Virus record (IMG/VR): IMGVR_UViG_3300044693_000261
Location: 39,349 to 103,348 of that record
Reading direction: 5' to 3' (one strand)
Length of the DNA stretch: 64,000 nt
Origin: a virus
Lineage: Duplodnaviria > Caudoviricetes
The position numbers and the translations under genes are program-made. Of the stretch, positions 51,891-64,000 are shown one piece after another (the stretch's first letter is position 1; each line of letters opens with the position of its first letter). Below the pieces are notes generated by a model. The model saw only the letters and a list, made by a program, of their open reading frames with translations, ran no database searches and was not told the DNA's origin.

Positions 51891-53219
51891 TCAGCCGGTG
51901 CTGTGCTGAAGGTCGACCTTGACCATGCTCTCCGGGCGGAAAACGGCCAGACCCAGCCGCTCCTCGGCCAGCACGACGATCGCGTTGCGGACGAAGAAGT
52001 CCATGTGCTGGTCGGCGGTGCGGATGTTGGACTGCATCCGGTCGTAGATCTGCGCGCCGAGGCCGAACGCGCCGACCAGGGCGGTGCCCTCCGGGATGAC
52101 CGGGGTCGCGACGACCGGCAGCTGCCACAGCTGCCGCTGCGCGCCGGTGGTCACCGACACGGCCGCGACGTAGCGGCCCATGGAGTCCTTGGTCAGCTCC
52201 ATGCGCTCCCAGTCGTACGGGTGCACGACCACGCCGGTCGCCTCGTAGTTGGCGAGCACGACGCGGGTGGTGGCCCGCCGGATGGCGTCGATGTAGGTGT
52301 CGCCGGTGACGGGGGTCGCGGCACCCGGGTAGATCTGGATGTTGTCGGTGTTGAGGATGCCGAGCAGGTTCTCGCCCTGCCCGTCGCCGAGCAGCAGCTG
52401 GGCGTCCTCCTCCAGCCGCAGGCCGTACATCAGCCGGGTGTCGACGATGTTGCGCAGCGTCGGCTCGTCGTCCAGCGTGTTCCTGTGCGCGGGGATCCAG
52501 TGCGCGATGGTCTTGATCGGCGTGCTCTTGGTGCCGAAGTTGATGTTGCTCTTGGGCTTCAACCCAAAATTCGAATTGTCGTTGGTCCGCTCGGCGACCG
52601 TCGCGGCGGCGTTGTCGCCGGGGTTGACGAAGCCCAGCTCCTGGACGTACTCGATCATCACCGACGTGGTGCTGGCCGAGGGGAACAGGTCGCGCACGCG
52701 CGCCTGCCGCATCGGCGCGGCCACGACCGGGGCGCGTTCGACCGTGCCGAAGCCGGGGTGGGTGAACGTGCCGATGCTGCCCGAGTACAGGTCCTTGTAC
52801 TGGACTGCCGCCGTCAGCTCGACGTCGGAGACCTCGAAGGTGCCATTCATGGCACCGGACGCCTTGCGGTCCTTGAACTCGGCCGACTCGACGAACCGCT
52901 GGCCGAGGCTCTTGTACTCGACCGCCGTCGGCTGCTGCATCGCGGCCTGCTGCTGCGCGGCCAGCGACTGCCCCGCCGGCGCGTTCAGGTAGTCCTCGAT
53001 CCGGCTCTTGCCTTCGAGGCCGCCGATGACGTCCTGAACCTCGCGGGCCTGCGCCATGAGCGACTTGAACTCGGCGGAAGCCGTCTCGGAGACGACGATC
53101 CCGCCGTCTTCCTTCTTGAACCCCTCGCGGGTGATGGCGTTCAGCTTCTCGTTGAGACCGCCCAGCTGCTCGCGGGCCGCCTTCAGCAGGCTCTTGGTCT
53201 CGATCGTGTCGTGACTCAC
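51891..53219 (-). CDS. Major capsid protein (HK97 fold with N-terminal delta/scaffold domain)
   Basis: KTIAHWIP, QLLLGDG.GENLLGILN, HP.DW, AEERLGL.V.RP. Confidence 0.95.
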   Translation of the reverse strand: MSHDTIETKSLLKAAREQLGGLNEKLNAITREGFKKEDGGIVVSETASAEFKSLMAQAREVQDVIGGLEGKSRIEDYLNAPAGQSLAAQQQAAMQQPTAVEYKSLGQRFVESAEFKDRKASGAMNGTFEVSDVELTAAVQYKDLYSGSIGTFTHPGFGTVERAPVVAAPMRQARVRDLFPSASTTSVMIEYVQELGFVNPGDNAAATVAERTNDNSNFGLKPKSNINFGTKSTPIKTIAHWIPAHRNTLDDEPTLRNIVDTRLMYGLRLEEDAQLLLGDGQGENLLGILNTDNIQIYPGAATPVTGDTYIDAIRRATTRVVLANYEATGVVVHPYDWERMELTKDSMGRYVAAVSVTTGAQRQLWQLPVVATPVIPEGTALVGAFGLGAQIYDRMQSNIRTADQHMDFFVRNAIVVLAEERLGLAVFRPESMVKVDLQHSTG

Positions 53220-53345
53220 GCTGGTCTTTCCTTCCGTGCGCGATCCGATGTGTGCTGGACCCGCGCCGGTCAGTACCAAGCGCGCATGCCCGGAAGGGTA
53301 TTCGTGGTGATCGTCGAGAAGTCGGAACCGTAACGGCGTGTCGAA

Positions 53346-53389
53346 ACGACGGACGGCCCCAGGGTCGGGGGACCGGGGCCGTCCGTCGT
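53346..53389 (-). terminator. Hairpin terminator after the giant protease gene
   Basis: ACGACGGACGGCCCC / GGGGCCGTCCGTCGT 15-bp stem. Confidence 0.75.
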
Positions 53390-53401
53390 GGAGCGTAAGT
53401 G

Positions 53402-56400
53402 TTACTGCCCGGTAGGCGCGGCAGGCTTGGCGGCCTGAAGGCTCCAGCCGTCGGCCGGGATCTCCAAGGTGTAGACGGTGTCGGTGCCGGTGGTCGAGTT
53501 GTCGTCGACCGCGCGGAACGTCGCTGTGATCGAGCCGTCCGGGTTGACGCTGACCGAGTCGGTGGACTGGTAGGTCTTCTTGAGCTGCAACGGCCCGTCG
53601 TTGTGTCCCGGAATCGAGACGCCCGGGAACGTCAGTGTCCAGCCGTTGCCCGAATCCACCGACTTGCTGATCTGCACACCGCCCGAGCGCGCCTCGTCGG
53701 CCAGCTTCTTCGCGAACGCCACACGCTGCTCGTACTGCCGATCGGAGTCCGAGGTCAGCCGCGCCGGCGTGACGTCGACCTTGCTGATCTTCGCCTCACC
53801 GGTGTTGCCCGCGCTGGCCAGCCGCTCCACGTTCGACCAGTTCTGCGGGTCGGCGTCGTGCATCACCTGGTCGGACATGGCTTTCAGCGCCGCGCCCATG
53901 TCGCCGGTCTTGGTCAGCTTGCTCGGGTAGTAGTTGTCGGTGCTGTTCGGGTCCTTGACTCGGTAGCTGATCGTCGTGCCCTTGTGCTTCTCGGCCAGGT
54001 CGGCCAGCGTCGAGGCCACCGTGTACGGGTGGGTCGGGGCCATGGTGGTCGCCCACGCCGCGATCGAGCGCAGCTGGTTGGCGTTCTTCTCGTCGGTCCG
54101 GTTGACGAAGTCGCCCCGCGACAGCGCCAGACCGGGCGAGTCCAGGCCGGTCGCCTCGGTGTAGGGCGCGGTGTTCAGCGACACGACCCGCACATCGCTG
54201 GGCACATCGGCCTGCGCCGCGTTCGGGGTGTCGGCCAGCAGTGCCCGGGTCGCGCCCGGCCCCTGCGCGATGGCCTCGTCCAGCTTCGCGCGGTTGACGA
54301 CGACCCCGGCCAGGCCGATGCCCAGCTGCTCCTTGGTGTCCCTGATCTCTTGAACGGCCCCACTGCCGTCGCCGGACCAGTCGATGGCGCTGCCGGTACC
54401 CGGGTTGACGGCCGTTTCGTAGTAGCGACCGGCGCGGTCGGCCACGTCCTGGGTGGCGAAGCTGCCGATGCGCTTGCCGGACGGCGCATGCGTCAAACTG
54501 CCATCCGGCGTGGTGAAGAACCAGCCGCCAGCCGACAGTCGCGCACCCTTCCACCTGCTGTCGTCGGTGATCATCTCATTGAGATAGTTCTGGTGCTGCT
54601 GGTAGGCGTCCTGCTTGAGCGAGTCGGGGATGTTGCCTTTGCGCCACGCCTCGCGCACATCGTCGATGCTGTTGAACTGCGACTGTGCGGGCGCGTCCAG
54701 CAGGTTGAGCTGTCCACCGGCGACGGCGTCGATCACCTGCGTCTGGTTGTCCAGGGCTCGCTGCGCTTCCGGGGTGGTCGCCTCCGGGGTGATCGAGGCA
54801 GCCTTGGCCGCGCGCGCCGACGGAGCCTTGACGCGTCGAGTGGCCGCGCCGGAGCGCTGCTTGGGCGGGGTCGCGTTCGGCGCACCCAGCTGGGCGTCGA
54901 GTGCGGCGCGGGCCTTGGTGACCGCCGACTCCAATGCCGCATCGGTAGGCGTGGCCTCGGTCAGCGCCTTCGCCTTCTGCGCCGTGTCCGGGACGTCCTG
55001 GCCCTGCGCCAGTGGCGCGATCGCGTGCGAGACGGGGTTGCCGCTGTAGGCGTCGGCCATGGGCGACCACTTGCCGGGACTGGACTCGACCCACTTCGGC
55101 ATGGTGACGCGGTCGCCGGTGACTGAGAGCGTGACCGGCGTCTGGGCGGGCGCGCCCTCCTCGACCGCGCGGATCTGGAACAGGCCGGCGCTGGCCGGAC
55201 GCGTCTTGGCCGAGCTGGTCAGCCCCATCGAGTTGCGGCCGCCGCCGTAGGTCTGCCCCTCGGCGGTGCCGAGGATTTTGAACACGCGGGCATACGGCGT
55301 GGTCGAGGTGGGGTTGCCGCTCACCGGCGACGTGTCGTACATCATGAAACGCTGACCGGGCTGGGCCTCGAACAGCGCGGCGGTGCCGACAGGCGTGGTC
55401 GAGTAGCTGTGCCTGATCTCGTTGGCGATGCCACGCAGGTGCAGCGAGCCACGGCTGGGCGCGTCACCGTTGACCAGCTGCTCCGTGTCGCCGGTGCGCG
55501 CGCCGCCGCCGTAGCGGGCGGACAACTCGTCGGCGCGGCGCTCCAGCATGGCGATCGCCTTGTCGGGTGCGCCGAGCATGTAGACGTTGCGTGCGCCGTT
55601 GGCCACGCGCATCGTCTCGGCGTCGTCGGCCAGCTGCTCGGGCGTGCGGTCCTCGGTGGCGTAGCGGCCGCGCTGCGGCTTACCGTCGTGCAGCAGCAAT
55701 CCGAGGTTGCCGATGCGGGTGGTCAGCGCCCGGTCGCCGGAGGCGTAGTTGGGGAACACCTTGGCCATGTCGGACGACCGGCTGAAGTTCAGCTGATACG
55801 CGGTGGTCTGGACCAGCGGGTTGGTGGTGTCGCCGTTGGCCACGCGCTGCGCGACCACGTTGGCCACCCCGAACGCGCCCAGCTCGGTCGGGCTCAGGCC
55901 GCTGTCCTTGACCATGCCCATCGGGTCGGTGCCGGCGCGCGACCAGTCGATGGTCGAGCCGCTGGGCCCGGTGCCGCGCTCCAGCGCCTGCATGACGTCG
56001 CGGGCGTCCTTATTGGACAGGGCGGCCTCGGGCATACGGATGTACGCGCCATTTTCGCTGGTGAAGATCGTGTAGCCCTTGCGGTCACTCGTGCGCGCCG
56101 CGAACAGGCCGCCGCCGGGCGAGAGCATCGCCGTGTCCCACTGGATCGTGTTGGGACGCGAGGTGAACTGCTCGACACCGGCCAGGTGCTCGCGCACGTC
56201 GGCGATCGACTTGTACGGCGTCGACACCGGCTGGTCGGTCAGTGGCGTCGGCTCGGTGAAGTCGCGCATGCCGGTAACCGGGTTGACGCTCGGCGACTGC
56301 GCGGCCGCCAGCGCGGCGGCCTTGCGGATCGTCGCGGTCCGCGCGGCCGGCTCGGGCGCGGGCGGCGCGGTCGGCAGCGTCTCGCCCTCGGGCACGCCGC

Positions 56401-59400
56401 CGTACTGCTTGGCGTAGGCGTCCGCGAGCCCGCGCGCGATCTCCCGCTGGGCGTCCTCGGGGCTGACGGCTGTGCCGTCCTGGAGATCCACGGGCACGCC
56501 GGACTGGTCATACAACCGAGACGACCAGGGGATCATGCCGCGCTTGTCGGGGGTGCCGTAGGTGGCCACGTAGTTCTGCCCGACCACCATCTGGGTGCCG
56601 CCAGGGCCGCCGGCGAAGTACTGCCCGGCGGGCTGGTCGACGACGGCCGGGGTGGCCCAGGTCGCCGGCTTGTTGATCAGCGCCGGCGCGTTCGGCGTGG
56701 TGGTGGTCGCGGCGACCTCGGGCGTCGACGCGGCCGCGCCAGGGGTCCCGGCGGCAGCACCCGCGCCGCCGCCGCCGGGGGCGTTGGGGGCATTCGGCGC
56801 GTTCGGCATGCCCGGCTCGCCCGGGGTCGGCACACCGGGCTGGTCGGTGGGGGCGGGGCCGCCGTAGGTGACCGGGTCGAGGTTGCGGGAGCGCATCTCG
56901 GCGTCGATCTGGCCCAGCAGGCTGCGCAGCTTGTCGCGCTCCAGCCGCTTGGCGGCGCGCCGGTCTCGCGCCGAGGCGTTGCGCTTGTCGCGGGTGTCGC
57001 TGCGCAGGTTGCCGGCGAGTTCGCGGACCTTCTCGGCGTCCGGGTGGCTGGAGTCGACCTCGGTGAGCAGGTCGCGCAGGCCCTGGGCGTGCTCGCTGTC
57101 GGTCTTGGACCGGCGCAGGCTCGACTCCAGTCGGGCGCGCGCGGCGGCCGCCCGGTTCTCGTCGCCGGCGTCGATGGCCTCGGCGTAGTCCTCGGCCGCG
57201 CCAGCAAGGCCCGCCTTCGGCTTGGGCGTGGCCGGAACCGCCGGTGCCTGCGGGGCCTCGGGCGCGGCCGGCGCGTTCGGCTCGCCGGCGGGCGGCACCT
57301 TGGCCACCTCGTGGGTCGCCGCGCCGCCCGGCTCATTCGGTGCGGACGGCGCGGCCGGCGCGCCGGTGGGTGGCGTGACGGTGCCGGTGATCGGGCTGGC
57401 GTTGGCGGCGACCGCGTCGCGACGGTGGATCTCGTTCTGGAGTTTCAGCTCATCGACGACGTCCTGTCGGGTCGCGCCGAGCTGGTCGTTTTCCATGCCG
57501 GTCAGGTCCAGGGTGCCGGCGTCGGCCTGCTGGAGCAGTTCCGACACACGGTCCTGCCGGTCGGCGACGTCGGTGGTGACCTCCAGCTGGCCCTCGGGGT
57601 CCTCCGAGAGCCCCATGGCGGCGTCGGCCACGTTCTGCATCTGGTCCAGCTGCTCGGGGCTGATCTGCTCCTCCGGCGACGGACCGGCGTTGACATCGGG
57701 CTGGCCGGGCTCCTGTGATGCGCCTGCGCCGACTGGCCTGTTCGCTTGCGCGCCGAGCGCATCGGCGGCCTGCTGGTCGCCATTGGCGGCGCGTTCCTGC
57801 CGGCGGCGATTGATCTCAGTGCCGAACACGTCGCGCGCCATCTTCGCATCGTGATACGCGGCGGAGTTGCGGGTCTCGCCGGCGGCGGACACATCGCGCA
57901 GTTTCTGGTGAGCGGCGGTGTGCTCGGCCTGCAACTGGGCGTCGGACAGCGCGCCGACGTTGTTCATGTTCCCGGTCGGCTTGTACGGCTCGCCGCCGTT
58001 GTCGTCGCCGCCAGCCTGCGGCGCGCCGCCGCCGGGCGTCCAGTCGCGCAGCTTCTGCACGTACGCGCCGTTGTCGCCGAGGTCGGCCCCGCTGTGCTCG
58101 ATGTGGTCGGCCATCTCGGCGAGGTTGGCCTTGACGTCCTCGGGCTTGACGTTCGCCGGCATCTCGCCCGGGTCGCGGCCGGACGCGAGCGCGCTGGCCA
58201 CGTTCTCGGTCATGCTGCGGGTGGCCGGATCCTCGTCGCGCAGCAGCGCGGTGCCAGCGAGGCTGGCCGCGTGCCCGGCCTTCCCGCCGGGCCCCTTGGC
58301 CATCATGGTGTCGTTGTTGATCCGGTCGGCCATCAGGGCGTGGTCGACCTTGGGTGCCGGCGCGCCGCCCTTGCCGCGCCGCTTCTGCTCAGCCTCGACG
58401 GCCTTCAGGTGCTGCTCGTGCTTGGCGTGGTTGCGACCGTCGGAGACAACCGAGTTGCCCAGCTGGCTGCGGTTGCGGTGGATGTTGGCGGCTTCCTGTG
58501 CCAACTCGTCGTTGGACGCGCTCTTGAGCCAGTCGCCGCGCCCCCGGTTGGAGTGGGTGCGCTGCCGGGTCGCCTCGGGCGTGATCACGCGCGAGCGGTG
58601 TCCCGGCGCGGGCTTGCCGGTAGCGACCTCGGGCGCGTTCGGTGCCTCCGGAACCTTCGGGGCGGCCTTGGCCGGTGTGGGCTTCTTGCCCGTCGGCGCG
58701 GGCTTGTTCAGCTCGCGCATGGCGGTCGGGTGGTCCAGGCCAGCCTGACGGTGCTGGATGTACTGGTTGCGCTTACGCGAGTTGCGCACCTGCATGCGCT
58801 GCGAGTGCGGCAGTTCGGCCATCTCGCGCTCGGGGTTGTCCTGCCAGCGCTGCTGTGTCGTCATGCCGGCGCGCCGGAGGATGTTCTCCGTGCTGTTGAC
58901 GTTCTCCGTCGGGTTGGGGGTGCCCGCGCGGTGCTTGTCGAGCAGCGCCTGCCGGTGTCGCTCGCCCTCGGGGGTGAGGATCACGCCGCCATCCGAGTGA
59001 GGAGTTGCGAGCCCTCGATCGACAAGGCCGCCGGACACGGTGGGATGCGGCGTAGTGCGCAGACTGGCATCAGGGGTGCCGGCGGCCCCGTTCTGCGCCG
59101 CAGGCTTGGCCACCATCAATGCATGCTGCATCTGCGGCGACAGCGTCTGGAGCGGCTTGTCCGGCGCACTCGGCGCGTTCGGCGCACCGCCGGCGGACCG
59201 CTCGGCGATGGCGTCCTTGACCAACTGGTGCGGCGCACTGACCTGGCCGTCGGTGGCGCGGTTGGCCAGCTCGCGATCCAGCTGGTTCAGTTCGTCGTCG
59301 CTGTAGCCGCGTAGCGTCGCCTTGGCGGTGCTGGGCTGCATCCCGACGATGCGGCTGGCCAGCCCGTGAACGTCCGGCGTGGGGCCGCCGACGGCCTTGG

Positions 59401-60220
59401 CGGCGTCGACAACGGCCTGCGCCGAGGGCTTCTCGTGGGTCACACCCATGTCCTGGGTGACCGGCTTGCCCTCGGAACGCAGCGCGTGCGCCTTGGGCCC
59501 CATCGGTTTCATGCCCAGCCGGATCGGGGTGCCGTAGGGCAGGCCCCAAAACTCCTGATCGCGGACGTAGCGCGCCTTGGTCTCGGTCTGCTCGGGCCGG
59601 ATCCCGGTGTACTCCATGCCGTCGCGGTCGCCGGACTTCACCGACAGCAGGTGGGCGTACTTGTTCGCGCCGTGCAGCACGTCCGACCACTCGTACCAGT
59701 CGAGGTCGGTGATGTAGCGAACGCCGCCACGCTTGCGAGCCTGGCGCACCTTGTAGCCGATCGAGAAGTTCTGTTCGTCCTTGTAGAACTTGGCGTTGGC
59801 GTACGCGGTCCGACCGGCCTCGGTCTCCAGGTTGTACTGCGCCTTGACGTACAGCGCGCCGGCCGAGGCGGGCCACGGCTCACCGGTGACCGGCACTGTC
59901 TTGGGCAGGCGCGGGTCGCCCGGCTGCCACTCCTCGCGCACGATGGCCTTGGCGTACGGCGTCTTCCAGTCGTGCGCCGAGACACCCTTGGCTTTCATCT
60001 CGGCCAGGGTGCGCCGGAACGCATTGGGCACGATGACGTCGCCCACGTCGTCGACGACGCCGGTCACGGCGGCCAACAGCTCGACGTCGGCGACCAGGTT
60101 GCCGTCCTCGTCGCGGTACGGGCCGCCAGGAGTGTCGAGCACCCCCGTGGCCTCCGCCGGGTTGCCGCCGGGGTACTGCTTGAACTCGATGTCGTCGCCG
60201 CGATCGAGCGTGTGCGTCAT
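53402..60220 (-). CDS. HK97-family prohead protease fused to about 2050 aa of cargo (probable internal virion polyprotein)
   Basis: DDVGDVIVPNAF, AHDW (His), FSIGY (Ser), YEWS.V..GAN; directly upstream of capsid. Confidence 0.9.
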   Translation of the reverse strand: MTHTLDRGDDIEFKQYPGGNPAEATGVLDTPGGPYRDEDGNLVADVELLAAVTGVVDDVGDVIVPNAFRRTLAEMKAKGVSAHDWKTPYAKAIVREEWQPGDPRLPKTVPVTGEPWPASAGALYVKAQYNLETEAGRTAYANAKFYKDEQNFSIGYKVRQARKRGGVRYITDLDWYEWSDVLHGANKYAHLLSVKSGDRDGMEYTGIRPEQTETKARYVRDQEFWGLPYGTPIRLGMKPMGPKAHALRSEGKPVTQDMGVTHEKPSAQAVVDAAKAVGGPTPDVHGLASRIVGMQPSTAKATLRGYSDDELNQLDRELANRATDGQVSAPHQLVKDAIAERSAGGAPNAPSAPDKPLQTLSPQMQHALMVAKPAAQNGAAGTPDASLRTTPHPTVSGGLVDRGLATPHSDGGVILTPEGERHRQALLDKHRAGTPNPTENVNSTENILRRAGMTTQQRWQDNPEREMAELPHSQRMQVRNSRKRNQYIQHRQAGLDHPTAMRELNKPAPTGKKPTPAKAAPKVPEAPNAPEVATGKPAPGHRSRVITPEATRQRTHSNRGRGDWLKSASNDELAQEAANIHRNRSQLGNSVVSDGRNHAKHEQHLKAVEAEQKRRGKGGAPAPKVDHALMADRINNDTMMAKGPGGKAGHAASLAGTALLRDEDPATRSMTENVASALASGRDPGEMPANVKPEDVKANLAEMADHIEHSGADLGDNGAYVQKLRDWTPGGGAPQAGGDDNGGEPYKPTGNMNNVGALSDAQLQAEHTAAHQKLRDVSAAGETRNSAAYHDAKMARDVFGTEINRRRQERAANGDQQAADALGAQANRPVGAGASQEPGQPDVNAGPSPEEQISPEQLDQMQNVADAAMGLSEDPEGQLEVTTDVADRQDRVSELLQQADAGTLDLTGMENDQLGATRQDVVDELKLQNEIHRRDAVAANASPITGTVTPPTGAPAAPSAPNEPGGAATHEVAKVPPAGEPNAPAAPEAPQAPAVPATPKPKAGLAGAAEDYAEAIDAGDENRAAAARARLESSLRRSKTDSEHAQGLRDLLTEVDSSHPDAEKVRELAGNLRSDTRDKRNASARDRRAAKRLERDKLRSLLGQIDAEMRSRNLDPVTYGGPAPTDQPGVPTPGEPGMPNAPNAPNAPGGGGAGAAAGTPGAAASTPEVAATTTTPNAPALINKPATWATPAVVDQPAGQYFAGGPGGTQMVVGQNYVATYGTPDKRGMIPWSSRLYDQSGVPVDLQDGTAVSPEDAQREIARGLADAYAKQYGGVPEGETLPTAPPAPEPAARTATIRKAAALAAAQSPSVNPVTGMRDFTEPTPLTDQPVSTPYKSIADVREHLAGVEQFTSRPNTIQWDTAMLSPGGGLFAARTSDRKGYTIFTSENGAYIRMPEAALSNKDARDVMQALERGTGPSGSTIDWSRAGTDPMGMVKDSGLSPTELGAFGVANVVAQRVANGDTTNPLVQTTAYQLNFSRSSDMAKVFPNYASGDRALTTRIGNLGLLLHDGKPQRGRYATEDRTPEQLADDAETMRVANGARNVYMLGAPDKAIAMLERRADELSARYGGGARTGDTEQLVNGDAPSRGSLHLRGIANEIRHSYSTTPVGTAALFEAQPGQRFMMYDTSPVSGNPTSTTPYARVFKILGTAEGQTYGGGRNSMGLTSSAKTRPASAGLFQIRAVEEGAPAQTPVTLSVTGDRVTMPKWVESSPGKWSPMADAYSGNPVSHAIAPLAQGQDVPDTAQKAKALTEATPTDAALESAVTKARAALDAQLGAPNATPPKQRSGAATRRVKAPSARAAKAASITPEATTPEAQRALDNQTQVIDAVAGGQLNLLDAPAQSQFNSIDDVREAWRKGNIPDSLKQDAYQQHQNYLNEMITDDSRWKGARLSAGGWFFTTPDGSLTHAPSGKRIGSFATQDVADRAGRYYETAVNPGTGSAIDWSGDGSGAVQEIRDTKEQLGIGLAGVVVNRAKLDEAIAQGPGATRALLADTPNAAQADVPSDVRVVSLNTAPYTEATGLDSPGLALSRGDFVNRTDEKNANQLRSIAAWATTMAPTHPYTVASTLADLAEKHKGTTISYRVKDPNSTDNYYPSKLTKTGDMGAALKAMSDQVMHDADPQNWSNVERLASAGNTGEAKISKVDVTPARLTSDSDRQYEQRVAFAKKLADEARSGGVQISKSVDSGNGWTLTFPGVSIPGHNDGPLQLKKTYQSTDSVSVNPDGSITATFRAVDDNSTTGTDTVYTLEIPADGWSLQAAKPAAPTGQ

Positions 60221-60292
60221 GGGCGTTGTCCCTCCCGGCCTGGTCAGCCGTGATCGTATGAGCGACCGGGAGGGCCTTCGGGCAGGCGCGCC

Positions 60293-62197
60293 CTAGATCC
60301 CGTCGAACAGGCTGGCGGGCATGTTCAGCGCGCCGGTTTGCGCGGTGCCCACCGTGCCGTTCGATCCCAGGCCGTTGTCGTCGTCCTGGGTATTCTTGCC
60401 CTGTTCCGGTCCTCCGTCAACCAGATCGCCGTCGCCACCCAGCAGCCAGCGCTTGTCACGCCGCAGCACATCGGCCCAGTCGTCGTCGCCGATGTCGGTC
60501 TGGACGTCGCCGCCGTTCTGGTCGCCCGGGTCGCCAGCCGAGACGTCGAGCAGGCCGAGGCGGTCGGTTTCCAGCATCAGGTCGTCCAGCGACCCGGGCG
60601 CGGCCTTGAATTCGGCGGTCAGTCGGTCGAGGGCCTTCAGCTCCAGCGGGGTGATCACCACCTCGGCCGACTTGATCCGCAGACCCTGGTCCGCCTCGAC
60701 CACCGGGCCTTCGTCGGCGTCCCCCTCGACGCCGTCGCCGTCATCCTCGGTTTCGTCGTTGTCGAGGAGGGCGTTGCCGAATTCGTCCATCTCGCCCGGG
60801 TCGATCAGCAGCAGCGCCACCGGGTCGACGCCGTCGAACATGGCCGCCTCGTCGTCGTCAGGCATGCCGGGGTCGTACTGCTCCGGATCATCGCTGTCGC
60901 CGAGCAGCGGCATCGGCTGCGGCAACTCCTTCTTGCCCAGCTTGCCGCCGTCCTCGTGGCCTGGCCACACCCCCAGCGCGAGGTGATGGATGTTCGCGGT
61001 CAGGCCCGACAGGATGTGCGGATCGTGCACGTACTTGGCCAGCTGGCGACGCAGCCGGTAGAAGTCGTGAGGCTCGCCCGGCCGCCACTTCGCCCGCGCT
61101 ACCGGGTTGAACGCCCAGTAGCGGCGCAGCTTGGCCGCGCGCGGATCCGGCGAGGCCACCTTCACCTCGATACCGTTCTCGGCGCTCTTGCCCGACGGCT
61201 CGAAGTCGATCGAGGAGGCGTCGAGCATGTGCGTCGCGCCGAGCGCCTTGGCGCGCTTCTTGATGTGGGCCCGCAGCTCGGCCCGCTTGCCCTCCGGGGC
61301 CTCGCCGTAGGCCCGCAGCGCGTTCTTCAGGTCCTCGTGGTTGGCGATCGGGTAGGAGCCGTCCGGCATGGCGGTGCCGGCCTTCGCCATCTGCTTGCGC
61401 TTCTCGGGCGTGAACTTCCGCTTGTACTCGACGCTCTCGAACTCGCCGGCCTTGATCTCGCGGATCACCCTGTGCTCGATGCCAGGGTGCAGGGTCGTGC
61501 ACAGGTCGCCCAGGTCGTTGTGCTCGCACAGCGCCGTCTTGGTCTCGACGTCATGCGTCAGCGCGTACAGATCGGGCCGCAGGTCAGCGCAGACCGCGCC
61601 ACAGGCCGACTTCTCCTCACCGGACACGGGCCACACGTCGTGGTCGGTGTCGCCCTCCGGCGTGGTGTCGTCGTCGCCGTCACTGTCCGGGTCGACACCC
61701 AGCGGGAAGTCCTGCACGTCGTCGCCGACGGCGTAGCGCAGCTTGTCGAAGCGCACCGGACCGCCGTAGCTGACCTGGCTGGGATCCAGGCCGTAGCCGG
61801 CGGTGACATGCGGCAGGTAGCCGGGATGCTGTGCCGGCAAGTCGGGGTAGTCGTCGCTGCCGTTGATCGCGTCGGTGAGGTAGTCGCGCAGGTCCGACAG
61901 GTCGCCCGAGCCGCCGATCAGGTGCACGACGCAGGGGTCCATGTCGCCGTCCGGGCCGCCGGTCGGGTTGAAGTGCGCGGGGCCGACCACGTGGGCGTCG
62001 ATGGGTTGCACGCCGGGCGCGAGGCTGGCCACCAGGTTGCCGAGGTTGGCGCGCTGATCGTCACTCCAGCCGTTCACGTCGTCGTCGTCGCCGAGATACA
62101 GCAGCGTGGCGTGCAGCTCGCTGGGGTCCTCGCCGCCGTCGACCGCGAGGTTGCCCAGGCTGTCGTCGTCGGGCACGAGCGCGATCATTCCGCCCAT
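60293..62197 (-). CDS. Head-region multidomain protein with N-terminal 2H phosphoesterase (Acb1 / 2'-5' RNA ligase superfamily)
   Basis: LHATLLY and PHVTAGY HxT motifs; then AMPDGSYPI and KLRRYW...H...LGVWPG modules, acidic tail. Confidence 0.85.
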   Translation of the reverse strand: MGGMIALVPDDDSLGNLAVDGGEDPSELHATLLYLGDDDDVNGWSDDQRANLGNLVASLAPGVQPIDAHVVGPAHFNPTGGPDGDMDPCVVHLIGGSGDLSDLRDYLTDAINGSDDYPDLPAQHPGYLPHVTAGYGLDPSQVSYGGPVRFDKLRYAVGDDVQDFPLGVDPDSDGDDDTTPEGDTDHDVWPVSGEEKSACGAVCADLRPDLYALTHDVETKTALCEHNDLGDLCTTLHPGIEHRVIREIKAGEFESVEYKRKFTPEKRKQMAKAGTAMPDGSYPIANHEDLKNALRAYGEAPEGKRAELRAHIKKRAKALGATHMLDASSIDFEPSGKSAENGIEVKVASPDPRAAKLRRYWAFNPVARAKWRPGEPHDFYRLRRQLAKYVHDPHILSGLTANIHHLALGVWPGHEDGGKLGKKELPQPMPLLGDSDDPEQYDPGMPDDDEAAMFDGVDPVALLLIDPGEMDEFGNALLDNDETEDDGDGVEGDADEGPVVEADQGLRIKSAEVVITPLELKALDRLTAEFKAAPGSLDDLMLETDRLGLLDVSAGDPGDQNGGDVQTDIGDDDWADVLRRDKRWLLGGDGDLVDGGPEQGKNTQDDDNGLGSNGTVGTAQTGALNMPASLFDGI

Positions 62198-62394: not shown

Positions 62395-63138
62395 TCAGTA
62401 GTCCAGGCGGATGCGCGCGCCGCCGCGCGCCACGGACACGGTGACCGGCTGGCCCACGGGAACATCCGCCGGCCACTCGCCCACGGTGACGAAGCTGTCG
62501 TTGCGGTAGCCGCTGCGGTTCCACGTCCGGCCGTCGTGGTGGTGCTCGATGATGACGTTCTGCCCCGTGGCCATGGCGTCACGAACCTCGACGGGCAGCC
62601 GCAGGTCGTTCACGCTCTTGTTCGAGGTCAGTACCACCGAGTGGCCCTCGACGCGGCTGTCCTCCAGTTCGGGCACCTCGGCCAGCCGCGCGTCGGAGGT
62701 GTGCAGGTGCTGCACCGGGCAGGAGCCGTCAGCGTTCAGGTCCGCGCCGCAGACCATGGGTGGGATGTGGTCGCCGCCCCGGTCGATGGCCTGGATGTCG
62801 CCGATGATCATCTGGCACTGAGCGAGGCCCTTGACGTCGTCCAGCCGGTGGAATGCCCGCACTCGGGCGCGCAGGTTGTCGACGCCCGGGAGAGTGGCCA
62901 GCTCGGCGCAGATGGTGACGATCACGGTGTAGAGAGCGTCGGCGGCGGTCTTGCCGATGGCGATGCCAGTGCGTACGGTCTCGCCACCGTAGAAGGCGGT
63001 GTAGGCCCAGTGCTGGTCGGTGTAGAGGAAATGCAGGTTGCACAGCCGGATCTCGGCGTCGTTGCCGGTGATCTTGTGAACGGTGACGCCCTCGGTCGCC
63101 TCAATGGTCTCCAGCTCGGGGGCCTGCGTCTGCGTCAT
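62395..63138 (-). CDS. Hypothetical protein with its own early-class promoter (moron)
   Basis: AGGGAG RBS; promoter upstream, terminator downstream. Confidence 0.8.
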   Translation of the reverse strand: MTQTQAPELETIEATEGVTVHKITGNDAEIRLCNLHFLYTDQHWAYTAFYGGETVRTGIAIGKTAADALYTVIVTICAELATLPGVDNLRARVRAFHRLDDVKGLAQCQMIIGDIQAIDRGGDHIPPMVCGADLNADGSCPVQHLHTSDARLAEVPELEDSRVEGHSVVLTSNKSVNDLRLPVEVRDAMATGQNVIIEHHHDGRTWNRSGYRNDSFVTVGEWPADVPVGQPVTVSVARGGARIRLDY

Positions 63139-63158
63139 GGTGTTCTCCCTGTCTCGAA

Positions 63159-63199
63159 CGGAACGGGTCAAGCTTAGCCATGTCGCAAGGTTGGGTCAA
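63159..63199 (-). promoter_or_regulatory. Early-class promoter (TTGACC-N17-TAAGCT-N6-GTTCCG)
   Basis: Reverse-strand motif; spacer closely resembles the 1245 copy. Confidence 0.85.
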
Positions 63200-64000
63200 G
63201 CGGCCGGCGCGAACCATGTGCCGTAGCGGTCCCGATCACCATGACGATCCACCATGTCGTTCCACCACTGCCGCGCCTGGATCAGGCAGTACGAGCAGTC
63301 GGCGTGGGTGGCGGTGCAGTCGGGGTGTTTGATGTGCTCGTAGCGCGCCGCGAATGACCATGCCTGACTGTCGACCGAGTCCACGAGGTCGCCGTACAGC
63401 TTGAGCCCGTCGGTCTTCACGCCGAATCCGTGGATCGGCAAACCGGGGTCGCGGTCCCGCAGCGACGCCATGATGTCCCGGATCTCGCCGGTGTCCTGCC
63501 GCGTGCACACCGAGCCGACACCGACTACCGGAACGTTCGACACGTCGACGCCGGCATCCTCGAACATGTCCCAGCAGCGGTGATAGCTGGCCTCGTCGCT
63601 GCCCTGGAGTACGAGCATGAAAGGGTTTTCGCGCATCGGATCGTAGTTCACGGCCTCGTTCCACAGCCGCACCAGCTGGCCGTAGTTGGCCACGGTGAAC
63701 CGCTGGTGCTCCAGTTCGGTCAGGCCGGTGGCGGCCAAGATCTCGTCCTCGACCATCATGTCCTGCTGCGCGGCCCACGACAGATTTCCGATCTCGGTGT
63801 CGTAGCGCAGCACATCGGCGACGTACTGCTCCGGCGTGATCGTCCATCGGCCGTGCTGGCGCAGCTCGTTGAACCCGCGCGAGTCCAGCGCCCATGCACC
63901 GGTCGGCGGCGACTTCGGCAGCTTGTGCTTGAGCCGGCGCAACCGGCCGTAGCTGACGAACAGGGGAATGGTGGTGCGCCCGAGCCAGGCCGGCTCGGGC
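63196..64000 (-). CDS. DpdA / queuine tRNA-ribosyltransferase-like transglycosylase (5' end outside window)
   Basis: WALDSRGF, QDMMVE, VLQG, VGVGSVC.RQ, HGFGVK, SVDSQAWS, H..C..C motifs. Confidence 0.8.
   Translation of the reverse strand, partial: PEPAWLGRTTIPLFVSYGRLRRLKHKLPKSPPTGAWALDSRGFNELRQHGRWTITPEQYVADVLRYDTEIGNLSWAAQQDMMVEDEILAATGLTELEHQRFTVANYGQLVRLWNEAVNYDPMRENPFMLVLQGSDEASYHRCWDMFEDAGVDVSNVPVVGVGSVCTRQDTGEIRDIMASLRDRDPGLPIHGFGVKTDGLKLYGDLVDSVDSQAWSFAARYEHIKHPDCTATHADCSYCLIQARQWWNDMVDRHGDRDRYGTWFAPAA

What the first reader, a model, noticed from the sequence alone, without database searches (positions are those of the whole stretch)
51891..62197. Shared E-x-K motifs suggest a protease-processed head polyprotein system
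Seen: the capsid delta domain has IETK, AEFK, LEGK, VEYK, AEFK and VQYK (the last just before the HK97 fold); the protease is bracketed by IEFK and TETK; the 2H protein has GEEK, VETK, REIK, VEYK, IEVK, LELK, AEFK, several exactly at module boundaries (VEYK-RKFTPE, IEVK-VASPDP, TETK-ARYVRD). Known: HK97 protease cleaves after Lys. Inference: all three adjacent proteins are co-packaged and cut, releasing the 2H enzyme, small modules and the giant cargo inside the head for possible ejection.
Basis: inference. Interest (0 to 1): 0.8.

Follow-up and report, generated by a model that had tools for sequence, protein, structure and literature searches.

The report
Lysine-ending cut-site code in phage head
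A 103-kb phage of high-GC (actinobacterial-type) hosts marks its capsid scaffold, its head protease and two large neighbouring proteins with one short motif (hydrophobic-Glu-x-Lys). This is most likely where the head protease cuts, so the mature contents of the head could be read from sequence, but no cut has been measured.

Summary

- **Enrichment in this genome:** E-x-K is the most enriched of 1,600 gapped residue pairs in the capsid delta domain, the 2H protein and the first 260 residues of the giant protein (17 seen, 3.8 expected). The remaining 2,012 residues of the giant (3 vs 4.0) and the rest of the proteome (32 vs 38.8) show no enrichment.
- **Conservation:** the sites are kept in register in 28 capsid homologues (153 vs 28.7 in delta domains), in 45 homologues of the 2H protein and in related giants. 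Consensus: [D/E/G]-[I/V]-E-x-K, then A/R/V/S.
- **Position:** the sites fall in predicted flexible linkers or at domain starts. The last capsid site, VQYK|D, sits where HK97 is cut (K103|S104).
- **The protease** is a divergent Peptidase_S78 domain fused to about 2,050 residues of orphan sequence. Relatives fuse the same protease to 2H or NUDIX enzymes through E-x-K linkers.

The best reading is a prohead-protease cleavage code that releases head-internal cargo. Cleavage, packaging and ejection are all inferred. Published work predicts packaged 2H effectors but, in the library searched, not this motif. The scan noted the same V-E-x-K code earlier on another genome (e1-5327731).

The parts
60293..62197 (-). 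Gene for the 634-aa multi-module head protein. Modules: a 2H phosphoesterase domain, two small helical modules and an acidic tail. It carries 8 E-x-K motifs.
   Evidence: Pfam 2_5_RNA_ligase2. Motif count 8 vs 1.55 expected. AlphaFold model with three confident domains separated by low-confidence linkers.
61682..62197 (-). 2H phosphoesterase domain (residues 1-172) with both H-x-T motifs (LHATL, PHVTA).
   Evidence: pLDDT above 90. Foldseek top hits are LigT-like 2'-5' RNA ligases, a phage phosphodiesterase and Acb1. H29, T31, H130 and T132 are invariant or nearly so in 52 homologues.
61421..61621 (-). Linker region of the 2H protein holding GEEK (61610-61621), VETK (61538-61549), REIK (61451-61462) and VEYK (61421-61432).
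   Evidence: pLDDT below 50 for residues 177-197 and 213-256. The columns of K196, K220 and K259 hold E-x-K in 32/37, 41/44 and 13/17 homologues.
61208..61420 (-). Small helical module 2 (residues 260-330), starting directly after VEYK.
   Evidence: pLDDT 93-97. The same module sits C-terminal of the protease in Gordonia phage DalanDe gp27, at 1527-1610, and is followed there by TESK.
61160..61171 (-). IEVK site immediately before module 3 (IEVK|VASPDP).
   Evidence: E-x-K is present in this column in 45 of 45 homologues. It lies in the low-confidence linker 333-347.
60953..61159 (-). Small helical module 3 (residues 347-415, VASPDP...WPG). This module is widespread and is fused elsewhere to S78 or ClpP prohead proteases and to MuF.
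   Evidence: phrog_6439. pLDDT 93-97. Found in 74 proteins, including ones carrying PF04586, PF00574 or PF04233.
53402..60220 (-). Gene for the 2272-aa protease-cargo fusion protein.
   Evidence: Single open frame with GC3 of 0.92. Homologues of 2279-3689 aa occur in related phage contigs.
60179..60190 (-). IEFK site in the disordered N-terminal tail, ahead of the protease domain.
   Evidence: Residues 1-29 have pLDDT below 50. Relatives have LEWK or VEFK at the same place. In 29 distinct S78 reading frames, E-x-K occurs 17 times vs 2.9 expected in the 45 residues upstream of the domain.
59633..60133 (-). Prohead protease domain (residues 30-196), a divergent member of Peptidase_S78 (HK97 gp4 type). 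Candidate catalytic residues are His83 and Ser153.
   Evidence: phrog_80 'head maturation protease', E=3.3e-13. Pfam S78 scores 19.9 bits, below the 21-bit cut-off. hhalign against HK97 gp4 gives E=3.2e-5 and aligns the His and Ser. H83 is invariant and S153 nearly so in 32 sequences. Relatives at 33-57% identity pass the Pfam S78 cut-off. The fold's top matches are herpesvirus assemblins and T4 gp21.
59576..59587 (-). TETK site at the end of the linker after the protease domain (TETK|ARYVRD).
   Evidence: Linker 197-213 has pLDDT below 50. E-x-K lies 7-9 residues before the conserved FWGLP motif in 5 of 6 giant lineages. DalanDe gp27 has MEIK just after its protease domain.
59465..59575 (-). 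Conserved 37-residue segment (ARYVRDQEFWGLPYGTPI...SEGK) between TETK and SEGK. Its role is unknown.
   Evidence: Conserved in giants of distant relatives. Modelled with pLDDT of about 87-93 next to the protease domain.
53405..59464 (-). Cargo part (residues 253-2272). Residues of about 300-1200 are poor in hydrophobic residues. Two more globular regions follow at about 1200-1650 and 1800-2250. No family could be assigned.
   Evidence: No Pfam or PHROG hit. Only 5 homologues of residues 1220-2272 among 1.84 billion representatives. No ESM Atlas hit. E-x-K is not enriched and its sites are not conserved. Composition.
51891..53219 (-). Major capsid protein gene (442 aa, HK97 fold).
   Evidence: Pfam Phage_capsid 1.2e-40. 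HK97 gp5 structures match at E of about 1e-53.
52794..53219 (-). Delta (scaffolding) domain, residues 1-142. Sites: IETK 53193-53204, AEFK 53064-53075, LEGK 53007-53018, VEYK 52911-52922, AEFK 52872-52883, VQYK 52794-52805.
   Evidence: 5 E-x-K vs 1.1 expected. The columns are conserved in 28 homologues, 153 vs 28.7 expected. The last site reads E-x-K in 10 of 28 and Q-x-K in the others. It lies 32 residues before VRDLF, and HK97 S104 lies 30 residues before IRDLL.

Best explanation
**Proposed mechanism.** The motif [D/E/G]-[I/V/A/L]-E-x-K is the recognition site of this phage's own HK97-type (Peptidase_S78) prohead protease. Cutting most likely occurs after the Lys.

**Loading.** The protease is made as the N-terminal domain of a 2272-aa protein and enters the procapsid together with its C-terminal cargo. 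The neighbouring 2H protein is loaded as well, probably through one of its small conserved modules or its acidic tail.

**Cutting inside the procapsid.**
- The capsid delta domain is cut at six sites into pieces of 9-43 residues that can leave the shell. This leaves a 300-residue mature capsid protein starting at Asp143.
- The protease trims its own 14-residue N-terminal tail.
- It separates itself from the cargo at TETK215.
- It cuts the 2H protein into a free 2H phosphoesterase of about 21 kDa and several small modules.

**Fate of the cargo.** The orphan cargo of about 2,020-2,060 residues has no conserved site and is too large to escape. It should therefore stay in the head with the DNA.

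**Status of each step.**
- Shown here: the motif, its specificity, its conservation, its position at linkers, and the identities of the three proteins.
- Inferred: that the motif is cut, which bond is cut, that the 2H protein and the cargo are in the virion, and any delivery into the host.
For: 1. **Specific enrichment.** E.K ranks first of 1,600 patterns (17 vs 3.8, p=5e-7). It is not enriched in the rest of the proteome or in the cargo.
2. **Conservation in the capsid.** E and K are among the few invariant columns of an otherwise divergent delta domain in 28 homologues. Counts are 153 vs 28.7 in delta domains and 6 vs 10.1 in the mature part.
3. **Conservation in the 2H protein.** Among 45 homologues, five columns hold E-x-K in 32/37, 41/44, 13/17, 45/45 and 38/44 sequences, while P2 and the flanks vary. 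K.E is depleted.
4. **Linker position.** All five conserved columns fall in low-pLDDT linkers or at linker-domain junctions of the AlphaFold model. Linkers make up 37% of the residues.
5. **The protease domain is bracketed.**
   - Here the sites are IEFK (in the disordered tail) and TETK (at the linker end).
   - Close and distant giants show the same pattern.
   - DalanDe gp27 also shows it (TETK 1112, MEIK 1315), although there the domain sits at 1135-1296 in a different domain order.
6. **Recurrence in unrelated linkers.** In 29 distinct S78 reading frames from IMG/VR, E-x-K is enriched just before (17 vs 2.9) and just after (25 vs 8.7) the domain. In several, the linker leads straight into a 2H or NUDIX domain.
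7. **Match to the HK97 site.** VQYK|D is at the position of the HK97 K103|S104 site. That site was verified from the 282-residue mature chain against the 385-residue precursor.
8. **Protease identity.** Supported.
Against: - There is no experimental cleavage data for this phage or any relative. Literature searches found none.
- The proven HK97 site (TFNK|S) lacks Glu at P3, so only the P1 Lys is borrowed from known biology.
- The final capsid site here has Gln, not Glu.
- Some motif copies lie inside folded domains (AEMK 73 next to the catalytic His, PEGK 301) and are unlikely to be cut.
- Two giant lineages (L037, L061) lack the site after the protease.
- The portal's two E-x-K sites are not conserved.
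- An E-x-K/R near the N-terminus is common in S78 proteases, including HK97 gp4 (TEIK 13-16). It might be a feature of the fold and not a cut site.
- No packaging signal has been identified for the 2H protein.
Confidence: 0.68

Rival explanations
1. The motif is a short docking or capsid-targeting signal that is bound but not cut. For example, the capsid interior, the delta domain or the portal might recognise it and so recruit the protease, the 2H protein and their modules into the procapsid.
For: The motif marks exactly the proteins expected to be recruited. Capsid-targeting peptides exist in T4 and P1, for example the 30 N-terminal residues of DarB (PMC9024508). No cleavage has been measured.
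Against: - Six copies inside the delta domain, spaced 9-43 residues apart, fit degradation better than docking.
- The last copy coincides with the HK97 maturation site.
- The copies sit at linker-domain junctions, including between the protease and unrelated cargo enzymes in other phages. Release sites belong there; docking sites need not.
Confidence: 0.12
2. Only the capsid delta domain is a real substrate. The E-x-K copies in the 2H protein and around the protease are inherited linker sequence or serve another purpose, and these two proteins act in the cytoplasm without being packaged.
For: Packaging of the 2H protein and of the cargo is not shown. The cargo half has no motif enrichment. Several motif copies are inside folded parts.
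Against: - The 2H-protein sites are conserved more strictly than their surroundings, up to 45/45.
- They recur in non-homologous linkers of protease-2H and protease-NUDIX fusions.
- Modules of the 2H protein are fused elsewhere to S78 or ClpP prohead proteases, MuF and portal domains.
- A protease domain must be inside the procapsid to act on the delta domain, and the giant is covalently attached to it.
Confidence: 0.12
3. The motif is cut, but by a different enzyme (a host Lys-specific protease or another phage protease), or at a bond other than Lys|X.
For: The specificity of this S78 domain is untested. Relatives of the fold cut after Glu (T4 gp21, phiKZ/SPN3US, P1 E120|S121) or after Ala (assemblins).
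Against: - No other protease gene was found in the head module.
- The motif co-occurs with S78 domains across many lineages.
- The K|S-L-G and K|D junctions match the K|S-L-G junction of HK97.
Confidence: 0.06

Closest known systems
HK97 prohead maturation: gp4 protease (Peptidase_S78) acting on the delta domain of capsid protein gp5
   Same: - HK97-fold capsid protein with an N-terminal delta domain, with the protease gene directly upstream.
- His/Ser protease of the assemblin-like fold.
- Maturation cut after a Lys at the equivalent position (K103|S104 in HK97, VQYK142|D143 here).
   Different: - The HK97 site (TFNK|S) has no Glu at P3.
- HK97 gp4 is a 225-aa stand-alone protein, whereas this protease carries about 2,050 extra residues.
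- In HK97 no neighbouring enzyme shares the motif.
- The protease domain here falls just below the Pfam cut-off.
T4 gp21 with internal proteins and Alt (capsid-targeting sequence cut at L/I-x-E), and the phiKZ/SPN3US prohead proteases that process ejected head proteins
   Same: One prohead protease reads one short motif in the capsid protein and in several head-internal proteins. Propeptides carry several motif copies. Cargo is delivered with the DNA (PMC10052503; PMC5512222).
   Different: - Those motifs end in Glu, and their cuts have been measured.
- Cargo is targeted by N-terminal propeptides rather than by fusion to the protease.
- Those proteases belong to the gp21 branch, not S78.
Polyvalent proteins and MuF- or portal-fused effectors of phages (Iyer et al. 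2017, PMC5512222)
   Same: Multi-domain proteins encoded in the head module. They include 2H phosphoesterase domains predicted to be packaged and injected, to degrade RNA or defence-signalling nucleotides. Module 3 of the 2H protein is also found in MuF fusions.
   Different: - That paper discusses processing by zincin-like peptidase domains.
- It does not describe fusion to the S78 prohead protease or an E-x-K linker code. 'Prohead' occurs only in its reference list.
Phage P1 Dar system (DarB, 250 kDa, packaged in the head)
   Same: A protein of about 2,250 residues is carried inside a myovirus head and is thought to enter the cell with the DNA. The capsid protein is processed by the prohead protease (PMC9024508).
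   Different: - DarB is targeted by its own 30 N-terminal residues and needs helper proteins.
- It is a recognisable methyltransferase/helicase.
- P1 cuts after Glu.
- There is no sequence similarity to the cargo here.

Membership tests
Peptidase_S78 (HK97 gp4-type prohead serine protease) | Significant match to the family profile | tested here: inconclusive
   Pfam PF04586 scores 19.9 bits against a 21-bit cut-off on the isolated domain and gives no hit on the whole protein. In contrast, phrog_80 'head maturation protease' gives E=3.3e-13. Relatives at 33-57% identity score 22-51 bits, above the cut-off.
Peptidase_S78 (HK97 gp4-type prohead serine protease) | Catalytic His and Ser conserved and alignable with HK97 gp4 H65 and S114 | tested here: met
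   hhalign against HK97 gp4 (E=3.2e-5, 138 columns) aligns SAHD with FNHK and FSIGY with MSVGF. H83 is invariant and S153 nearly invariant in 32 sequences. That H65 and S114 are the catalytic residues of gp4 comes from my own knowledge, not from a tool.
Peptidase_S78 (HK97 gp4-type prohead serine protease) | Assemblin-like fold | tested here: met
   The model has pLDDT above 90 for residues 30-196. The top Foldseek hits are herpesvirus proteases and T4 gp21 (TM to target 0.53-0.57), with weak E-values of 3.5e-3 to 1e-2.
Peptidase_S78 (HK97 gp4-type prohead serine protease) | Proteolytic activity and cleavage after Lys | not testable with these tools
   This needs biochemistry or virion N-terminomics.
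HK97-fold major capsid protein with delta domain | Match to the Phage_capsid profile and to HK97 gp5 structures, plus an N-terminal extension ahead of the N-arm | tested here: met
   PF05065 at 1.2e-40. HK97 gp5 chains match at E of about 1e-53 over residues 165-435. There are 142 residues ahead of the predicted mature N-terminus.
2H phosphoesterase superfamily (LigT/CPDase/Acb1-like) | Two H-x-T/S motifs on the 2H fold | tested here: met
   PF13563 at 29.5 bits against a 27-bit cut-off. H29-x-T31 and H130-x-T132 are conserved in 52 sequences. Foldseek hits are 1iuh, 1vdx, phage phosphodiesterase 9q2g and Acb1 7t27. The substrate was not tested, and membership of the Acb1 subfamily is not established.
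Prohead-protease-processed internal head proteins (T4 IP/Alt, phiKZ/SPN3US type) | The proteins are present in virions and their mature termini map to the protease motif | not testable with these tools
   Only indirect evidence is available: the shared motif, its linker position, and fusion of the same modules to prohead proteases, MuF and portal elsewhere.
Polyvalent proteins (Iyer et al. 2017) | Several unrelated effector-type domains in one polypeptide, encoded among virion genes | tested here: inconclusive
   The 2H protein has one enzymatic domain plus two small modules of unknown function. The giant has a protease plus unassignable sequence. The location in the head module is confirmed, with portal and MuF upstream and the capsid gene downstream.

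The most novel reading that the evidence does not exclude
In a broad group of actinobacterial phages the S78 prohead protease doubles as a self-loading, self-releasing carrier. Whatever is fused to it (a 2H phosphoesterase, a NUDIX hydrolase or a 2,000-residue orphan protein) would be carried into the procapsid and cut free at hydrophobic-Glu-x-Lys linkers. It would then be injected with the DNA as a pre-made counter-defence or takeover factor. If so, the motif would be a readable code that predicts the mature virion proteome, and the capsid N-terminus, of hundreds of sequenced actinobacteriophages.
Probability: 0.35. Interest if true: 0.75.

Novelty: new variant of a known kind. Interest (0 to 1): 0.6.

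Why it matters
[quoted passage not shown] If this motif holds, that site can be read from sequence for this lineage, and perhaps for many phages in the SEA-PHAGES collection.
- **Identifying head cargo.** The motif would show which neighbouring proteins are head cargo and what their mature forms are.
- **Pre-loaded counter-defence.** It points to enzymes that may be delivered before any phage gene is expressed. These are the 2H and NUDIX enzymes, which could destroy nucleotide signals of CBASS-, Thoeris- or CRISPR type III-like defences.
- **A possible engineering handle.** Protease domain plus E-x-K linker could serve to load foreign proteins into capsids.
- **An unexplored protein.** The orphan cargo of about 2,000 residues has almost no relatives in 1.84 billion representative proteins.

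Tried and rejected
- **Portal processing.** The portal (genome 1670-3235, minus strand) has VETK at residue 16 and DEVK near its C-terminus. Neither is kept in four relatives, so I treat them as chance.
- **Motif-rich giant cargo.** Rejected. Residues 261-2272 have 3 sites vs 4.0 expected, and none is conserved in the 75%-identical homologues P0124 and P0125.
- **Helix or coiled-coil composition as the cause.** Rejected. Other E/K spacings and the reverse order are not enriched.
- **A DNA-level motif.** Unlikely, because the middle residue and the flanks vary between sites and between relatives.
- **Internal repeats in the cargo.** Short shared strings suggested repeats, but BLASTP of the protein against itself found none.
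- **Function of the cargo.** Nothing came from Pfam, PHROGs, ESM Atlas or a full HMMER search. Only five relatives exist, three of them inside other giants.
- **PDB sequence searches with the protease domain or its profile.** No hit.
- **A mis-specified alignment.** One search used wrong strand coordinates for two loci. It was redone.
- **Literature.** Searches for a published Lys-ending or E-x-K prohead-protease motif in actinophages found none. The library lacks most subscription-journal papers, so absence there is weak evidence.

Full report
**Context.** The window is the last 64 kb of a single 103,348-bp virus contig with about 70% G+C. My own gene calls, based on codon bias, give 140 genes. 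The finding covers three adjacent minus-strand genes:
- a 634-aa protein with a 2H phosphoesterase domain (60293-62197);
- a 2272-aa protein (53402-60220);
- a 442-aa HK97-fold major capsid protein (51891-53219).

Transcriptionally upstream, across the contig ends, lie the portal and a MuF-like head-morphogenesis protein. Between MuF and the 2H gene lie a 112-aa gene (genome 11-349), a DpdA homologue and a 247-aa gene of unknown function. Downstream of the capsid gene the minus strand carries the genes I take to be the tail module; I did not annotate them here. The closest cultured relatives by capsid protein are Brevibacterium phage Cantare and the Gordonia phages DalanDe, GMA6 and Chidiebere-like, at 45-49% identity. 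The annotated records of Cantare and DalanDe show sheathed-tail (myovirus) genes in genomes of 86-91 kb.

**The observation.**
- Against shuffles of each protein, E-x-K occurs 5 times in the capsid protein (1.2 expected, p=0.003), all within the first 116 residues.
- It occurs 8 times in the 2H protein (1.55 expected, p<0.0005) and 4 times in the first 260 residues of the giant (1.1 expected, p=0.017).
- The remaining 2,012 residues of the giant have 3 (4.0 expected). The other 137 proteins together have 32 (38.8 expected).
- Neither other spacings (EK, E..K, E...K), nor the reverse order (K.E), nor D.K or E.R is enriched.
- To guard against a motif picked after the fact, I scored all 1,600 residue pairs with gaps of 0-3 in the three motif-bearing segments. 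E.K ranks first (17 vs 3.79, Poisson 5e-7, about 9e-4 after correction). The next pattern is at 9e-4 uncorrected. The following ranks (EF, KS, FK, KA) are parts of the same extended motif.

**Identity of the three proteins.**
- *Capsid protein.* It matches Pfam Phage_capsid (1.2e-40) and HK97 gp5 structures (about 1e-53) from residue 165 on.
- *Protease domain, sequence evidence.*
  - The N-terminus of the giant gives only a sub-threshold Pfam S78 hit (19.9 vs 21 bits).
  - It matches PHROG 80, 'head maturation protease', at 3.3e-13.
  - It aligns with HK97 gp4 by profile comparison (E=3.2e-5), with the His and Ser motifs in register.
  - It keeps H83 and S153 in 32 relatives.
  - It is 33-57% identical to domains in IMG/VR contigs, and the ten of these that I scanned pass the Pfam cut-off.
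- *Protease domain, structural evidence.* Its AlphaFold model (pLDDT above 90 for residues 30-196) finds herpesvirus assemblins and T4 gp21 as best folds, with weak E-values. I file it as a divergent S78 prohead protease.
- *2H domain.* It has both H-x-T motifs, passes Pfam, and its model matches LigT-like enzymes, a phage phosphodiesterase and Acb1.
- *Cargo.*
  - The part of the giant beyond about residue 253 has no detectable family.
  - Residues 615-1167 are shared at about 30% identity with the giants of relatives.
  - The C-terminal 1,050 residues have only five relatives among 1.84 billion representative proteins.

**Conservation in the capsid and 2H proteins.**
- Four uncultured relatives (contigs of 79-122 kb) have the same three-gene arrangement: a 2H protein of about 640-680 aa, a protease-giant of 3,177-3,689 aa, then the capsid gene. 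Their E-x-K sites are in register.
- In 28 capsid homologues (42-99% identical in the delta domain) there are 153 E-x-K in the first 150 residues (28.7 expected) and 6 in the rest (10.1 expected). The E and K columns are among the few invariant positions of the delta domain.
- The last site reads E-x-K|D in 10 of the 28 and Q-x-K|D in the others, including this phage.
- In 45 homologues of the 2H protein, whose linkers are so variable that the alignment needs 1,720 columns, E-x-K occupies the columns of own K196, K220, K259 and K346 in 32/37, 41/44, 13/17 and 45/45 sequences.
- A fifth column, after module 3, holds it in 38/44 sequences. Over 167 distinct contexts the consensus is D/E/G at P6-P5, I/V at P4, E at P3, V/T/G/F/Y at P2, K at P1 and A/R/V/S at P1'.
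- More distant homologues that share only the 2H domain lose the enrichment. The code therefore belongs to a clade.

**The same pattern around other protease domains.**
- Cantare's capsid protein and protease, and DalanDe's capsid protein, are enriched too.
- In DalanDe gp27 the protease domain sits at 1135-1296 of 1,633 residues, in a different domain order. It is still bracketed by TETK 1112 and MEIK 1315.
- A module homologous to residues 240-325 of the 2H protein here lies at 1527-1610 of DalanDe gp27 and is followed by TESK 1616.
- In 29 distinct S78 reading frames from IMG/VR, E-x-K is enriched in the 45 residues before the domain (17 vs 2.9) and the 60 residues after it (25 vs 8.7).
- In several of these frames the linker leads directly into a 2H domain (three sites in a row in L063 and L068-L070). 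In others it leads into a NUDIX domain (L071, L074, L090).
- Giants that share the FWGLP motif keep E-x-K 7-9 residues upstream of it in five of six lineages.
- Recurrence in non-homologous linkers is the strongest argument that the motif is selected for its own sake.

**Position relative to structure.**
- The AlphaFold model of the 2H protein (52-sequence alignment) has three confident domains (1-172, about 260-330 and about 348-415). They are separated by segments with pLDDT below 50 (177-197, 213-256, 333-347, 417-514).
- All five family-conserved motif columns fall in these segments or at their junction with a domain. Such segments make up 37% of the protein.
- In the model of giant residues 1-260, IEFK lies in a disordered tail (1-29). 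TETK ends the 197-213 linker.
- The 37 residues after TETK, conserved among giants, are modelled confidently beside the protease domain. I could not inspect coordinates, so their role stays open. They could be a docking element or a substrate held in cis.
- Two copies lie inside folded parts and are probably not cut: AEMK 73, next to the catalytic His, and PEGK 301, in module 2.

**Relation to the HK97 site.** The mature HK97 chain in the PDB has 282 residues and the precursor has 385. The mature protein therefore starts at S104, after TFNK. S104 lies 30 residues before IRDLL. Here D143, after VQYK, lies 32 residues before VRDLF. Cutting at all six capsid sites would give delta-domain pieces of 9, 43, 19, 32, 13 and 26 residues, plus a 300-residue mature protein (positions). 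HK97 has Lys at P1 but no Glu at P3. The Glu therefore cannot be attributed to 'known HK97 specificity'.

**Interpretation.**
- The most economical reading is that hydrophobic-Glu-x-Lys is the cleavage motif of this lineage's S78 protease. Under this reading the three proteins are its substrates inside the procapsid.
- The protease must be inside the procapsid to act on the delta domain, and the cargo is covalently attached to it.
- After a cut at K215 the cargo has no conserved site and is far too large to leave through capsid pores. It should therefore remain in the head.
- Modules of the 2H protein are fused in other phages to S78 or ClpP prohead proteases, MuF and portal domains. This supports a location inside the head.
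- Whether any of these proteins is ejected, and what the 2H enzyme or the orphan cargo does in the host, is inference only.
- Published comparative work already predicted packaged, injected 2H domains fused to MuF or portal, acting on RNA or on defence-signalling nucleotides (PMC5512222).

**Known systems and novelty.**
- The logic matches two known kinds of system. One is T4 gp21 with its internal proteins. The other is phiKZ/SPN3US, where a single protease motif marks the capsid protein and the ejected head proteins and propeptides carry several copies (PMC10052503).
- A head-packaged protein of about 2,250 residues is known from P1 DarB (PMC9024508).
- Three things are new here: the motif itself (Lys-ending with Glu at P3, in S78 actinophages), the use of the protease as the carrier to which cargo is fused, and the orphan cargo.
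- I found no paper describing the motif. A structural survey of actinophage capsid proteins states that the delta-domain cleavage site cannot be predicted. The searched library is incomplete, so this is not proof of novelty.
- Other agents of this scan noted the same V-E-x-K code on another actinophage genome and related Lys-ending codes elsewhere. Those are unverified notes and not independent evidence.

**Verdict.** I rate it a new variant of a known kind, with interest 0.6.

Noticed in passing
window 63196-63942 (-) and 62395-63138 (-): A DpdA homologue (Pfam PF23859, 2.2e-81; 7-deazaguanine DNA-modification transglycosylase family) and a 247-aa protein with no family hit lie inside the head module, between the MuF-like gene and the 2H gene. 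This is an unusual place for a DNA-modification gene.
   Followed up: partly
G000 contig ends: genome 403-3235 (L042) and window 62395-64000: The contig is opened inside the head module. The portal (genome 1670-3235) and a MuF-like protein (403-1707) sit at the left end, and the rest of the head genes sit at the right end. The record is therefore probably circularly permuted or arbitrarily opened.
   Followed up: partly
L085:979-3369 (IMG/VR contig 3300028792_000003): In this relative the S78 protease reading frame seems to be interrupted. The N-terminal part of the domain ends at about residue 297 and the C-terminal Pfam S78 match resumes at 617-663. The inserted sequence looks intein-like. 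This was not examined further.
   Followed up: no
window 59465-59575 (giant residues 216-252): A 37-residue segment (ARYVRDQEFWGLPYGTPI...) directly after the protease domain is conserved among giant fusions of distant relatives. AlphaFold models it confidently beside the protease. Its function is unknown; it could be a docking element or a cis substrate.
   Followed up: partly
L071, L073, L074, L077, L090 (IMG/VR contigs of 62-91 kb): These loci encode prohead protease-NUDIX hydrolase fusions. In three of them (L071, L074, L090) an M-E-Y-K|A-T-P linker joins the two domains; no E-x-K was seen in the linker of L073 or L077. This head-cargo architecture was not mentioned in the literature I read.
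   Followed up: partly
window 60293-60650 (2H protein residues about 517-634) and the C-termini of its homologues: The acidic C-terminal tail of the 2H protein ends in a conserved L-F-D/E motif across relatives (…SLFDGI, …DLFDVG, …ALFEAA). This is a candidate capsid- or scaffold-binding tail.
   Followed up: no
L037-L040 (giants of relatives G001-G004), C-termini: The giants of the four relatives end in a zinc-ribbon-like CPxCG...CxSCG motif that is absent from the giant here. The C-terminal halves of these giants are not homologous between clades, as expected for fast-swapping cargo.
   Followed up: partly
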